From Escherichia coli (lineage in GTDB: Bacteria; Pseudomonadota; Gammaproteobacteria; Enterobacterales; Enterobacteriaceae), in NCBI RefSeq assembly GCF_003334385.1, contig NZ_QOWN01000026.1: 64,000 bases of DNA; one strand, given 5' to 3'. Numbering within the stretch: position 1 is the stretch's first letter; every line of letters begins with the position of its first letter. Both the position numbers and the translations under genes were made by a program. This document shows positions 1 through 54,775 of the stretch, piece by piece. Below the pieces are notes generated by a model. The model worked only from the letters and a program-made list of their open reading frames with translations, searched no databases and was not told the origin of the DNA.

Positions 1-36
1 CGCTGACCCGGCGGCGTGTTTGCCGTTGTTCCGTGT

Positions 37-110
37 CAGTGGTGGCGCATTATAGGGAGTTATTCCGGCCTGACAAGCGAAAAATATAAAAACTTTATCG
101 TTCGCTCACT
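37..110 (-). promoter_or_regulatory. rRNA operon P1 promoter (probably rrnG), reading leftward out of the window
   Basis: Reverse complement of 37-76 reads TTGTCA-N16-TATAAT-GCGCCACC-A(+1), the canonical rrn P1 core with GC-rich discriminator; AT-rich UP-like element at about 77-100. rrnG assignment is from synteny with clpB only. Confidence 0.75.
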
Positions 111-159
111 TTTCAGGCAAAACATCTTAAATATAGTCTTTTCCGTCTAACTTATAGAC

Positions 160-188
160 AAAAACGAGCCCCGAAGGGCTCGTTTTAT
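160..188 (-). terminator. Intrinsic terminator downstream of clpB
   Basis: GC hairpin (GAGCCC-TTCGGG-GCTC) followed by a T-run on the minus strand, immediately 3' of the clpB stop. Confidence 0.7.
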
Positions 189-191
189 CAT

Positions 192-2765
192 TTACTGGAC
201 GGCGACAATCCGGTCTTCATTAACTTCCAGGCGAATCACTTTACCCGGAACCAATTCACCAGACAGTATTTGCTGTGCCAGCGGGTTTTCGATCTGCTGC
301 TGAATTGCACGTTTCAGAGGACGTGCACCATAGACCGGATCGTAACCGTTCTCGCTCAGCAGTTTCAGCGCCTCGTCAGAAATGTGGATTTCATAACCAC
401 GTTCTTCCAGACGTTTGTACAGACGTTTCAACTGAATCTGCGCAATCGAGGCAATGTGCTGTTCACCCAGCGGATGGAAGACCACCACTTCATCGATACG
501 GTTAATGAATTCCGGACGGAAGTTATGGCTTACCACACCGAGCACCAGCTCTTTCATGTGCGCATAATCCAGTTCACCGAAGCGTTCCTGAATCAGATCG
601 GAACCGAGGTTAGAGGTCATAATGACGACCGTATTACGGAAGTCGACCGTTCTCCCTTGCCCGTCAGTCAGACGCCCATCATCCAGTACCTGCAACAGAA
701 TGTTGAAGACATCCGGATGCGCTTTTTCCACTTCATCCAGCAGGATGACGGAATACGGACGACGACGCACCGCTTCGGTCAGGTAGCCACCTTCTTCATA
801 ACCGACATATCCCGGAGGCGCACCAACCAAACGAGACACCGAGTGTTTCTCCATAAACTCGGACATATCGATACGGACCATCGCCTCGTCGCTATCAAAC
901 ATAAAGTTCGCCAGCGCCTTACAAAGCTCTGTTTTCCCCACACCAGTTGGGCCGAGGAACAGGAATGAACCAATCGGGCGATTTGGATCCGCCAGCCCCG
1001 CACGGCTACGACGAATAGCGTTAGATACCGCATCAACCGCTTCGTTCTGACCAATTACGCGATGGTGCAGTTCTTGCTCCATACGCAGCAGTTTTTCGCG
1101 CTCGCTTTCCATCATGCGAGAAACCGGAATCCCCGTCCAACGCGCCAGCACTTCAGCAATTTCGGCGTCGGTCACTTTATTACGCAACAGACGCATAGTT
1201 TTGCCTTCGAGCTGCGTTGCGGCTTCCAGTTGCTTTTCCAGTTCCGGGATTTTGCCGTATTGCAGTTCAGACATCCGCGCCAGGTCCCCCACACGGCGAG
1301 CCTGTTCAATAGCGATTTTCGCCTGTTCCAGTTCCGCTTTAATGGTCTGCGTACCAGAAAGCGATGCCTTCTCTGCTTTCCACTCTTCTTCTAACTCGGA
1401 GTACTGACGTTCTTTGTCGCTCAGTTCTTCGTTGAGCATATCCAGACGTTTTTTACTGGCTTCATCAGACTCTTTCATTAACGCCTGTTGTTCCAGTTTG
1501 AGCTGGATGATACGACGATCGAGTCGGTCGAGTTCTTCTGGTTTTGAGTCAATCTGCATACGAATGCTGGATGCTGCTTCATCGATCAGGTCGATGGCTT
1601 TATCCGGCAGCTGACGGTCAGCAATGTAGCGATGAGACAACGTCGCCGCTGCAACAATTGCCGGGTCAGTAATTTGCACATGGTGGTGCAATTCGTAACG
1701 TTCTTTCAGGCCACGCAGAATCGCAATGGTATCTTCAACAGAAGGCTCGGCAACAAACACTTTCTGGAAACGACGTTCCAGCGCAGCATCTTTTTCAATG
1801 TACTGGCGATATTCGTCAAGCGTCGTGGCACCTACGCAGTGCAATTCACCACGCGCCAGCGCCGGTTTCAGCATGTTTCCGGCGTCCATTGCGCCATCGG
1901 CTTTACCCGCGCCGACCATGGTATGTAATTCGTCGATAAATAGGATGACGTTGCCTTCCTGTTTGGCAAGATCGTTAAGCACGCCTTTTAAACGTTCTTC
2001 AAACTCACCGCGATATTTCGCCCCAGCCACCAGCGCGCCCATATCCAGCGCCAGTACCCGGCGGCCTTTCAACCCTTCCGGCACTTCGCCGTTGATAATA
2101 CGCTGCGCCAGACCTTCAACGATGGCAGTTTTACCGACGCCGGGTTCACCAATCAGTACCGGGTTATTTTTAGTACGACGTTGCAGCACCTGAATGGTAC
2201 GGCGAATTTCTTCATCACGACCAATCACCGGATCGAGTTTGCCCTGTTCGGCTCGTTCGGTAAGGTCGATGGTATATTTTTTCAAAGCCTGACGTTGGTC
2301 TTCAGCACCTTGATCGTTCACGCTTTCACCTCCACGCATTTGTTCAATCGCTTGAGTAATGTTGGCGGTGGTCGCCCCTGCTGCTTTCAGGATGTCGGCC
2401 AGCGTGCCGCGAGACTCAAGTGCCGCCAGAACGAACAGTTCTGACGAGATAAAGTTATCACCACGTTTTTGCGCCAGCTTGTCGCAAAGATTAAGAACGC
2501 GCACCAGATCCTGTGATGGCTGGACATCACCACCAGTACCTTCAACCTGCGGTAAACGATTTAATGCCTGATTGATATCTGTGCGCAACTGGCCAGCATT
2601 TATGCCAGCGGATGTTAATAAAGGACTAACCGAACCCCCTTCCTGATTCAGCAGGGCGCTCATTAAATGAAGTGGTTCGATAAATTGGTTGTCGTGCCCG
2701 AGTGCAAGTGATTGGGCATCGGCAAGAGCAAGCTGGAATTTATTAGTAAGACGATCCAGACGCAT
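192..2765 (-). CDS. clpB: ClpB disaggregase (AAA+ chaperone, Hsp100)
   Basis: 861-aa ORF with two Walker A motifs ([16 protein letters not shown]); I place the start at the internal [10 protein letters not shown] methionine, giving 857 aa. Confidence 0.97.
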
Positions 2766-2799
2766 AACTCCTCCCATAACGGATCAAAGTTGCTACTGG

Positions 2800-2835
2800 A
2801 GATTAAATGAGGTCATCCCTCAATTATTCAAGGTT
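2800..2835 (-). promoter_or_regulatory. sigma32 heat-shock promoter of clpB
   Basis: Minus strand reads CTTGAAT (-35) ... CCTCATTTA (-10), matching sigma32 consensus CTTGAA / CCCCATnT, upstream of the clpB start. Confidence 0.7.
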
Positions 2836-2894
2836 ATTGACCAGATTAATGTGAAAAGAAAATCACGCGTACCGGATCGTCTTGATTCTTTAGG

Positions 2895-6160: not shown

Positions 6161-6190
6161 ACTGTACTAAAGTCACTTAAGGAAACAAAC

Positions 6191-6238
6191 ATGAAACACA
6201 TACCGTTTTTCTTCGCATTCTTTTTTACCTTCCCCTGA
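6191..6238 (+). CDS. pheL: pheA leader peptide (Phe-rich attenuation peptide)
   Basis: 15-codon [18 protein letters not shown] with 7 Phe codons; too short for the ORF track. Confidence 0.9.
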
Positions 6239-6284
6239 ATGGGAGGCGTTTCGTCGTGTGAAACAGAATGCGAAGACGAACAAT

Positions 6285-6316
6285 AAGGCCTCCCAAATCG
6301 GGGGGCCTTTTTTATT
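6285..6316 (+). terminator. pheA attenuator terminator
   Basis: Hairpin AAGGCCTCCC-AAATC-GGGGGGCCTT followed by a T-run between pheL and pheA. Confidence 0.8.
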
Positions 6317-9906: not shown

Positions 9907-9951
9907 CTCCCTTTGAAAACAATCCGCTATGCTTTGAAAAAGGAGAAAGAA

Positions 9952-10317
9952 ATGATGAAAAAGTTTATCGCCCCCTTGTTGGCTTTACTGGTTAGCGGAT
10001 GTCAGATTGATCCTTATACTCACGCGCCAACCTTGACCAGCACCGACTGGTATGATGTCGGTATGGAAGATGCGATATCGGGCAGCGCCATAAAAGATGA
10101 CGATGCATTTAGCGATTCACAGGCGGATCGCGGTCTATACCTTAAAGGATATGCCGAAGGACAAAAGAAAACTTGCCAGACCGATTTTACTTATGCCCGA
10201 GGACTTTCCGGTAAAAGCTTTCCTGCCAGCTGCAACAATGTTGAAAATGCCAGCCAACTGCATGAAGTATGGCAAAAAGGGGCTGATGAAAATGCCAGCA
10301 CAATACGATTAAATTAA
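9952..10317 (+). CDS. yfiL: Lipoprotein YfiL (DUF2799)
   Basis: ORF 9913-10317; start chosen at MMKKFIAPLLALLVSGC, which gives a lipoprotein signal peptide. Confidence 0.85.
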   Translation: MMKKFIAPLLALLVSGCQIDPYTHAPTLTSTDWYDVGMEDAISGSAIKDDDAFSDSQADRGLYLKGYAEGQKKTCQTDFTYARGLSGKSFPASCNNVENASQLHEVWQKGADENASTIRLN

Positions 10318-24184: not shown

Positions 24185-24547
24185 GGGGCTGATTCTGGAT
24201 TCGACGGGATTTGCGAAACCCAAGGTGCATGCCGAGGGGCGGTTGGCCTCGTAAAAAGCCGCAAAAAATAGTCGCAAACGACGAAAACTACGCTTTAGCA
24301 GCTTAATAACCTGCTTAGAGCCCTCTCTCCCTAGCCTCCGCTCTTAGGACGGGGATCAAGAGAGGTCAAACCCAAAAGAGATCGCGTGGAAGCCCTGCCT
24401 GGGGTTGAAGCGTTAAAACTTAATCAGGCTAGTTTGTTAGTGGCGTGTCCGTCCGCAGCTGGCAAGCGAATGTAAAGACTGACTAAGCATGTAGTACCGA
24501 GGATGTAGGAATTTCGGACGCGGGTTCAACTCCCGCCAGCTCCACCA
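24185..24547 (+). ncRNA. ssrA: tmRNA (transfer-messenger RNA)
   Basis: Starts GGGGCTGATTCTGGATTCGACGGG, ends GGGTTCAACTCCCGCCAGCTCCACCA; tag ORF GCA AAC GAC GAA AAC TAC GCT TTA GCA GCT TAA (ANDENYALAA) at 24274-24306. Confidence 0.97.
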
Positions 24548-24671
24548 ATCATGATTGGACGGTGTAAGGACAACACCAACAAAAACAGGAAGTTAGAAGT
24601 CTCAGCAAAACACCGACCAGACGGTGAGGAGACATAAAAGGATACGCAAAGGAGCCGCGGCTCCTGGTAAC

Positions 24672-24702
24672 ATGAAAGCCCACAGATGTGGGCTTTTTCG
24701 TT
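24672..24702. terminator. Terminator hairpin between ssrA and the 3' end of ypjA
   Basis: Palindrome AAAGCCCACA-GA-TGTGGGCTTTTT just before the ypjA stop at 24708. Confidence 0.7.
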
Positions 24703-24707
24703 GATGG

Positions 24708-54694: not shown

Positions 54695-54775
54695 CGGGCG
54701 GATAAGGCGTTTTTGCCGCATCCGCCGTTCTGTGCACAATGCCTGATGCGACGCTGGCGCGTCTTATCATGCCTA
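54695..54775. repeat. REP elements downstream of proX
   Basis: CGGGCGGATAAGGCGTTTTTGCCGCATCCGCC and GCCTGATGCGACGCTGGCGCGTCTTATCATGCCTAC are REP-type palindromes. Confidence 0.75.

What the first reader, a model, noticed from the sequence alone, without database searches (positions are those of the whole stretch)
1..110. Window begins inside an rRNA operon P1 promoter
A textbook rrn P1 core (TTGTCA-N16-TATAAT-GCGCCACC) on the minus strand drives transcription leftward out of the window, so an rRNA operon (rrnG by synteny) lies just beyond position 1. The clpB terminator and the UP/Fis region are within about 100 bp of each other.
Basis: partly seen in the sequence, partly recalled or inferred. 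Interest (0 to 1): 0.15.

Follow-up and report, generated by a model that had tools for sequence, protein, structure and literature searches.

The report
E. coli rrnG P1 ribosomal promoter
The left edge of the window holds the well-known main promoter (P1) of the E. coli rrnG ribosomal RNA operon, pointing leftward out of the window just after the end of the clpB gene; it is real, correctly identified, and entirely ordinary.

Summary
Confirmed, and already known. The motif TTGTCA-N16-TATAAT-GCGCCACC lies on the minus strand at 76..41. It occurs once in 64 kb and in none of 100 shuffles. The core from -36 to +39 is base-for-base identical to K-12 rrnA, rrnB, rrnC and rrnG P1. Everything upstream of -37 is identical to K-12 rrnG only. 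That upstream part holds the UP element (99..78) and Fis-type sites at -71, -91 and -112.

In E. coli genomes identical to the window's first 1.5 kb, the DNA left of position 1 carries P2 (43-70 bp out), boxA and the 16S gene (starting 252 bp out). tRNA-Glu, 23S, 5S and kgtP follow. This is the rrnG operon. The clpB-P1-16S junction is intact in 5373 of 5426 complete E. coli genomes.

One correction: the window starts at +40 of the P1 transcript, between P1 and P2. The whole of P1 is inside the window and P2 is outside.

Published reporter assays show the rrnG promoter fragment is strong and less active in a fis mutant. Nothing here is new.

The parts
1..40 (-). Initial transcribed region of rrnG P1 (+1 to +40). 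The inferred start is the A at window 40. Transcription leaves the window leftward.
   Evidence: Identical to K-12 rrnA/B/C/G from -36 to +39, apart from one SNP against K-12 rrnG at +36. The start nine bases after the -10 hexamer is taken from rrnB P1 (PMC7822876). It is inferred here, not measured.
41..48 (-). G+C-rich discriminator GCGCCACC (-8 to -1).
   Evidence: AT content is 0.12 against 0.50 for the window. Invariant in 8 divergent E. coli strains.
49..54 (-). -10 hexamer TATAAT.
   Evidence: TATAATGCGCC is shared by all seven K-12 rrn P1 promoters.
71..76 (-). -35 hexamer TTGTCA, 16-nt spacer to the -10 hexamer.
78..99 (-). UP element (-59 to -38), GATAAAGTTTTTATATTTTTCG, specific to rrnG.
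   Evidence: 82% A+T. Identical to K-12 rrnG and different from the rrnA/B/C UP sequence. rrnG P1 is listed among the rrn P1 promoters with UP elements. Function is inferred from position and composition.
104..118 (-). Fis site I candidate, centred at -71, GCCTGAAAAGTGAGC.
   Evidence: Scores 12/13 on a degenerate Fis consensus that also recovers the rrnB sites at -71, -102 and -143. The same register scores in 6 of 7 operons. Binding was not tested here.
124..138 (-). Weaker Fis-type candidate centred at -91, GACTATATTTAAGAT.
   Evidence: Scores 10/13. Weak on its own. It is listed because three Fis sites are reported for rrnG (PMC4696680) and because of the roughly 20.5-bp spacing with the other two.
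145..159 (-). Fis-type candidate centred at -112, the palindromic GTCTATAAGTTAGAC, directly abutting the clpB terminator.
   Evidence: Scores 12/13. Scores of 12 or more occur at 0.0015 per position across the window.
160..186 (-). clpB intrinsic terminator: 11-bp stem AAAACGAGCCC/GGGCTCGTTTT, TTCG loop, T-tract.
   Evidence: Perfect inverted repeat. RNA fold -20.3 kcal/mol, z = -5.3, 0 of 200 shuffles as stable. Invariant in 8 strains. The simple terminator scan missed it.
192..2765 (-). clpB coding sequence (857 aa), the gene upstream of rrnG P1.
   Evidence: RefSeq annotation of identical DNA and translation.

Best explanation
Window 40..159 (minus strand) is the complete P1 promoter of the E. 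coli rrnG ribosomal RNA operon. Sigma-70 RNA polymerase recognises a near-consensus -35/-10 pair with a suboptimal 16-bp spacer. The alpha C-terminal domains bind the A+T-rich UP element at -59 to -38. Fis bound at -71, and probably at -91 and -112, adds activation. Transcription starts at the A nine bases after the -10 hexamer (window 40) and runs leftward out of the window through P2, the boxB-boxA antitermination leader, 16S, tRNA-Glu, 23S and 5S. [quoted passage not shown] The clpB terminator immediately upstream separates the heat-shock clpB transcript from the rRNA operon. Shown here: the sequence anatomy, identity to K-12 rrnG P1, and the operon to the left in matching genomes. Taken from the literature: promoter activity, the drop in a fis mutant and Fis binding to the fragment, the UP element, and the mechanism. 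Inferred: the exact start site and which Fis sites are occupied.
For: The motif is unique in the window and absent from 100 shuffles. The core from -36 to +39 is identical to K-12 rrnA/B/C/G P1, and the upstream DNA is identical to rrnG only. P2, boxA and the 16S 5' end lie at the expected distances in the extension. Rfam and ARAGORN confirm 16S, tRNA-Glu(UUC), 23S and 5S. Annotation gives rrsG-gltW-rrlG-rrfG flanked by clpB and kgtP. The junction is intact in 5373 of 5426 complete E. coli genomes. P1 from -36 to about +21 is invariant in 8 divergent strains, while the P1-P2 spacer varies. The UP region is 82% A+T and the discriminator 12%. The Fis-consensus scan, validated on the rrnB sites, calls -71 and -112, with a weaker -91. 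In published reporter assays the rrnG promoter fragment (P1+P2) was second strongest of the seven. Fis bound it in gel shifts, deleting fis lowered expression from the rrn promoters to varying extents, and three Fis sites had been reported for rrnG (PMC4696680). The defining features of rrn P1 and their mechanism come from PMC7822876.
Against: Nothing contradicts it. The caveats are these. The actual DNA left of position 1 is not in the window. The start site and Fis occupancy were not measured here. The primary rrnG Fis/UP paper (Hirvonen et al. 2001, PMC100122) was not available, so my Fis site positions are consensus calls, not footprints. 53 of 5426 genomes lacked a single-piece junction and were not examined.
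Confidence: 0.97

Rival explanations
1. An orphan or relocated rrn P1 copy. The promoter sits after clpB, but in this particular strain the rRNA operon has been deleted, inverted away or interrupted, so P1 drives something else or nothing.
For: The left flank is not in the window. 53 of 5426 complete genomes did not show the junction as one piece covering at least 80% of the query.
Against: 99% of complete E. coli genomes have clpB-P1-16S contiguous. These include the strains identical to the window over the first 1.5 kb. One of them, 720632, matches at 99.96% over the stretch of the window compared, apart from one IS600. Recombination between rrn operons would still leave a 16S gene downstream of P1.
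Confidence: 0.02
2. A chance sigma-70-like match with no special function.
For: Simple consensus scans find promoter-like sites at about chance frequency in this region: 2 found against 2.9 expected.
Against: The full 36-nt core has zero chance expectation. It is identical over 75 nt to four characterised K-12 rrn P1 promoters, is invariant across divergent strains, and sits at the canonical distance from P2, boxA and 16S.
Confidence: 0.005

Closest known systems
E. coli K-12 rrnG P1 (rrsG-gltW-rrlG-rrfG operon, downstream of clpB)
   Same: From -175 to +40 the sequence is identical except for one base at +36. The flanking genes clpB and kgtP are the same, and so is the operon content of 16S, tRNA-Glu(UUC), 23S and 5S.
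   Different: One SNP at +36 (A here, G in K-12). Otherwise nothing.
E. coli rrnB P1, the model rRNA promoter
   Same: Identical from -36 to +39: TTGTCA, 16-bp spacer, TATAAT, GCGCCACC and an A start. The overall architecture of UP element, Fis site at -71, tandem P2 and boxA leader is the same.
   Different: The UP element sequence differs: GATAAAGTTTTTATATTTTTCG against AGAAAATTATTTTAAATTTCCT. The upstream Fis-type sites are at about -91 and -112 rather than -102 and -143. The upstream neighbour is the clpB terminator rather than murI.

Membership tests
E. coli-type rrn P1 promoter | Sigma-70 -35 and -10 hexamers with a 16-bp spacer | tested here: met
   TTGTCA-N16-TATAAT at 76..49, 11 of 12 consensus positions.
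E. coli-type rrn P1 promoter | G+C-rich discriminator from -8 to -1 (PMC7822876) | tested here: met
   GCGCCACC at 48..41, 12% A+T. Identical to rrnB P1.
E. coli-type rrn P1 promoter | A+T-rich UP element at about -60 to -40 (PMC7822876) | tested here: met
   The stretch -59 to -38 is 82% A+T. This tests composition and position only. Alpha-CTD binding was not tested.
E. coli-type rrn P1 promoter | Transcription start nine bases downstream of the -10 hexamer | not testable with these tools
   An A lies at that position (window 40), as in rrnB P1. No 5'-end data are available here.
E. coli-type rrn P1 promoter | Fis sites upstream of the UP element, with site I at about -71 | tested here: inconclusive
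   Consensus-type sites at -71 and -112 (12/13) and at -91 (10/13). The same scan recovers the rrnB sites at -71, -102 and -143. The literature reports Fis binding to the rrnG fragment and 3 sites. A consensus match is not a footprint.
E. coli-type rrn P1 promoter | Followed about 120 bp downstream by P2, then a boxA leader and a 16S rRNA gene | tested here: met
   Tested in matching genomes, not in the window itself. P2 is at L001 6958..6931, boxA is TGCTCTTTAACAA, and the 16S gene starts 291 nt after the P1 +1. The junction is present in 5373 of 5426 genomes.
rrnG operon specifically | clpB upstream, kgtP downstream, a single tRNA-Glu in the spacer, and an rrnG-specific sequence upstream of -37 | tested here: met
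Rho-independent terminator (clpB) | Stable G+C-rich hairpin followed by a T-tract just after the stop codon | tested here: met
   11-bp perfect stem, TTCG loop, TTTTT tail, -20.3 kcal/mol, z = -5.3. It begins 5 nt after the stop codon.

The most novel reading that the evidence does not exclude
The outermost Fis-type site (159..145) lies 1 bp from the clpB terminator T-tract (160). This tight packing could mean functional coupling and not only compaction. For example, Fis bound there might act as a roadblock that reinforces clpB termination during fast growth. Alternatively, terminator read-through from the sigma-32-driven clpB promoter might feed transcripts into rrnG during heat shock, when Fis is low. 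Nothing here tests this. The arrangement is invariant in 8 strains, but that is equally expected from plain conservation.
Probability: 0.05. Interest if true: 0.25.

Novelty: already known. Interest (0 to 1): 0.03.

Why it matters
It matters only as annotation. It fixes the window's identity (E. coli chromosome, clpB to gshA region) and orientation. It explains why the window, like many assembly contigs, ends at a repeated rRNA operon. It also marks positions 1..159 as regulatory DNA, not unexplained intergenic sequence. rrn P1 promoters are among the best-studied bacterial promoters, and no open question is touched.

Tried and rejected
1. A scan of 100,044 species genomes for the exact 36-nt core returned only four loci. 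All are rrnB-type with murI upstream, and one is a contaminant contig.

2. Hirvonen et al. 2001, the primary source for rrnG Fis sites and UP element, could not be read by DOI or PMC id. Fis positions therefore rest on my consensus scan plus Maeda et al. 2015.

3. A text search for the K-12 coordinate of the start site and for promoter names found no 5'-end mapping data.

4. A clpB plus rrnG literature search found nothing on read-through or coupling.

5. The simple terminator scan did not report the clpB terminator. Folding and the repeat search did.

6. The plus-strand promoter-like site at 110..137 (9 of 12) was rejected as chance, with 2 sites found against 2.9 expected.

7. An inverted repeat bracketing the UP element was considered as a possible regulator site. 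It was set aside because it is absent from rrnA/B/C and broken in one natural strain.

8. The 53 genomes without a one-piece junction could not be listed with the tool's row options and were not examined.

Full report
**Observation.** Reading the minus strand of window 1..300 shows ...TTTTTCGC TTGTCA GGCCGGAATAACTCCC TATAAT GCGCCACC ACTGACACGG... A pattern search for TTGTCA-N16-TATAAT-GCGCCACC finds exactly one match in 64 kb, at 76..41 on the minus strand. None of 100 dinucleotide-preserving shuffles contained a match. The generic sigma-70 scan scores it 11 of 12 with a 16-nt spacer.

**Identity of the window.** Window 1..1500 matches E. coli chromosomes at 100% and is present in all 5426 complete genomes of the collection. 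The annotated feature under the match is clpB. The whole window is 99.96% identical to strain 720632 (NZ_CP025842), except for an IS600 that this strain carries at about window 10,140.

In the strain identical over window 1..1500 (locus L001, where window position n equals L001 7000+n), the DNA left of position 1 reads as follows in transcript orientation. The rest of the P1-P2 spacer comes first. P2 (TTGACT-N16-TATTAT) is at L001 6958..6931, which is 43-70 bp beyond the window edge. A boxB-type hairpin follows, then boxA (TGCTCTTTAACAA), then AAATTGAAGAGTTTGATCATGGCTCAG, the 16S 5' end, at L001 6749. The 16S gene therefore starts 252 bp left of position 1, after a 291-nt leader from the inferred P1 start.
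- Rfam confirms full-length 16S (1579 bits), 23S (2875 bits) and 5S.
- ARAGORN finds a single tRNA-Glu(UUC) in the spacer.
- RefSeq annotation gives 16S, tRNA-Glu, 23S, 5S and then kgtP. In K-12 MG1655 the same genes are rrsG, gltW, rrlG and rrfG, between clpB and kgtP.
- A 751-nt query spanning 16S, leader, P1 and the end of clpB is found as one piece in 5373 of 5426 complete E. coli genomes.

**Which rrn operon.** I fetched all seven K-12 P1 regions and anchored them on the shared TATAATGCGCC. From -36 to +39 the window is identical to rrnA, rrnB, rrnC and rrnG. rrnD, rrnE and rrnH differ in the -35 hexamer, the spacer and the transcribed region. Upstream of -37 the window is identical to K-12 rrnG all the way into clpB and resembles no other operon. 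The only difference from K-12 rrnG between -175 and +40 is A for G at +36. The rrnG assignment therefore rests on both sequence and synteny.

**Anatomy in window coordinates (minus strand).**
- +1 is the A at 40.
- Discriminator GCGCCACC is at 48..41, with 12% A+T.
- The -10 hexamer TATAAT is at 54..49.
- The 16-nt spacer is at 70..55.
- The -35 hexamer TTGTCA is at 76..71.
- The UP element GATAAAGTTTTTATATTTTTCG is at 99..78, with 82% A+T against 50% for the window.

These are the features that Shin et al. 2021 list as defining rrn P1 promoters: a UP element at -60 to -40, a G+C-rich discriminator at -8 to -1, and a start nine bases after the -10 hexamer (PMC7822876). The start site itself is inferred from identity with rrnB P1. 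It was not measured.

**Fis sites.** A degenerate 15-bp Fis consensus recovers the three classical rrnB sites at -71, -102 and -143, so it is a fair yardstick. In the window it calls -71 (118..104, 12/13). That register scores in six of the seven operons. It also calls -112 (159..145, the palindromic GTCTATAAGTTAGAC, 12/13) and a weaker -91 (138..124, 10/13). Scores of 12 or more occur at 0.0015 per position across the window. The three candidates are about 20.5 bp apart and exactly fill the gap between the UP element and the clpB terminator.

Maeda et al. 2015 report that three Fis sites had been described for rrnG and that gel shifts suggest more through cooperative binding. They found the roughly 500-bp rrnG promoter fragment second strongest of the seven in a reporter assay. 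Deleting fis lowered expression from the rrn promoters to varying extents (PMC4696680). The primary paper (Hirvonen et al. 2001) is cited but could not be read. My site positions are therefore predictions, not footprints.

**clpB end.** clpB occupies 192..2765 on the minus strand and encodes 857 aa. Five nucleotides after its TAA stop lies a perfect 11-bp inverted repeat with a TTCG loop and a T-tract, at 186..160. As RNA it folds at -20.3 kcal/mol, z = -5.3, and none of 200 shuffles was as stable. The simple terminator scan missed it, probably because A:T pairs extend the stem into the T-tract. The T-tract ends at -120 relative to P1, 1 bp from the -112 Fis-type site.

**Conservation.** In eight E. 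coli strains chosen across the identity range, four parts are invariant: the terminator hairpin, P1 from -36 to about +21, boxA and the leader downstream of it, and the 16S 5' end. Differences cluster at +34 to +80 in the P1-P2 spacer, where there are two haplotypes, one of them rrnB-like. Single changes occur at the centre of Fis site I (G or A, and A fits the consensus better) and at two UP positions. This pattern fits a constrained core promoter, but eight closely related sequences are weak evidence on their own.

**Other species.** The exact 36-nt core was found in only four representative genomes. All four loci are rrnB-type with murI upstream: E. coli, an Escherichia sp., Intestinirhabdus alba and a contaminant contig. 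Nothing was learned about clpB-rrn synteny outside E. coli. A low-threshold Rfam scan unexpectedly aligned the family Ysr197 ("Yersinia sRNA 197") to the P1 -10 region, P2 and boxA, at 81 bits (below its gathering score of 167) and E = 1.6e-19. This shows that these blocks are conserved in Yersinia. It also suggests that the family is an rrn promoter/leader fragment.

**Mechanism.** This follows established knowledge of rrn P1, cited, and is applied here by sequence identity. Sigma-70 holoenzyme binds the near-consensus hexamers. The alpha C-terminal domains bind the UP element. Fis adds activation in fast growth. [quoted passage not shown] P2 provides basal expression, and boxA loads the antitermination complex. 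The clpB terminator keeps the heat-shock transcript out of the rRNA operon.

**Verdict.** There are two small corrections. The window begins at +40, between P1 and P2, not inside P1. The promoter's upstream activating region extends to 159, not 110. This is the already-known rrnG P1 promoter, and interest is very low.

Noticed in passing
L001 6871..7121 (window 1..121 plus 129 bp beyond the left edge): The Rfam family RF02849 Ysr197 ('Yersinia sRNA 197') aligns to the rrn P1 -10 region, P2 and boxA at 81 bits (below its gathering score of 167), E = 1.6e-19. The family looks like an rrn promoter/leader fragment and not an independent sRNA.
   Followed up: partly
window 160..186: The consensus terminator scan did not report the clpB terminator, although it folds at -20.3 kcal/mol with z = -5.3. 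The likely reason is that A:T pairs extend the stem into the T-tract.
   Followed up: yes
window 76..106: The inverted repeat AGCGAA-N19-TTCGCT brackets the rrnG UP element. rrnH has AGCGG-N21-CCGCT at the same place, rrnA/B/C have none, and the repeat is broken in strain GPEC673. It is probably shared ancestry or chance.
   Followed up: partly
L001 6960..7006 (P1-P2 spacer, +34 to +80, mostly outside the window): Two haplotypes occur among E. coli strains, one resembling the rrnB spacer. This suggests gene conversion between rrn operons.
   Followed up: no
L016 (NZ_JAHZMP010000136.1, 504 bp): A 0.66x-coverage contig in a Terrisporobacter mayombei assembly is E. coli rrnB P1 DNA, almost certainly contamination.
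   Followed up: partly
window 24708..29288 (-), stop at 28595..28593: The ypjA (EhaD-type autotransporter adhesin) gene carries a premature stop. The window reads TIEGGT*SLN where strain 720632 reads TIEGGTQSLN. This splits the gene into ORFs of 1258 and 274 aa.
   Followed up: yes
window 24185..24708: ssrA (tmRNA, 24185..24547) is followed directly by ypjA. I expected K-12's CP4-57 prophage here from memory, and it is not present in this strain.
   Followed up: partly
window ~10140 (ORF 9913..10317, +): The closest reference strain (720632) has an IS600 inserted in the DUF2799 gene (yfiL). The window has the uninterrupted ORF.
   Followed up: yes
window 32324..32399 (-): ARAGORN and the anticodon CAT call this tRNA-Met, but RefSeq annotates the same gene as tRNA-Ile. 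From memory, this is the lysidine-modified ileY type.
   Followed up: no
window 2746..2884 (-), 6190..6315 (+), 54696..54773 (+), 61371..61442 (+): Other Rfam hits above the gathering score: RyfD overlapping the clpB 5' end, the Phe leader, naRNA4 and MicA. All are expected for this K-12-like backbone.
   Followed up: no
window 110..137 (+): A divergent promoter-like site, TTTTCA-N16-TATAGT (9 of 12), overlaps the Fis region and faces the clpB terminator. It is not above chance, with 2 sites found against 2.9 expected.
   Followed up: no
alignment A1 column 208 (window ~192, clpB stop): O157:H7 and GPEC673 have a 1-bp deletion, TAAATGA to TAATGA, at the clpB stop. The TAA stop is retained.
   Followed up: no
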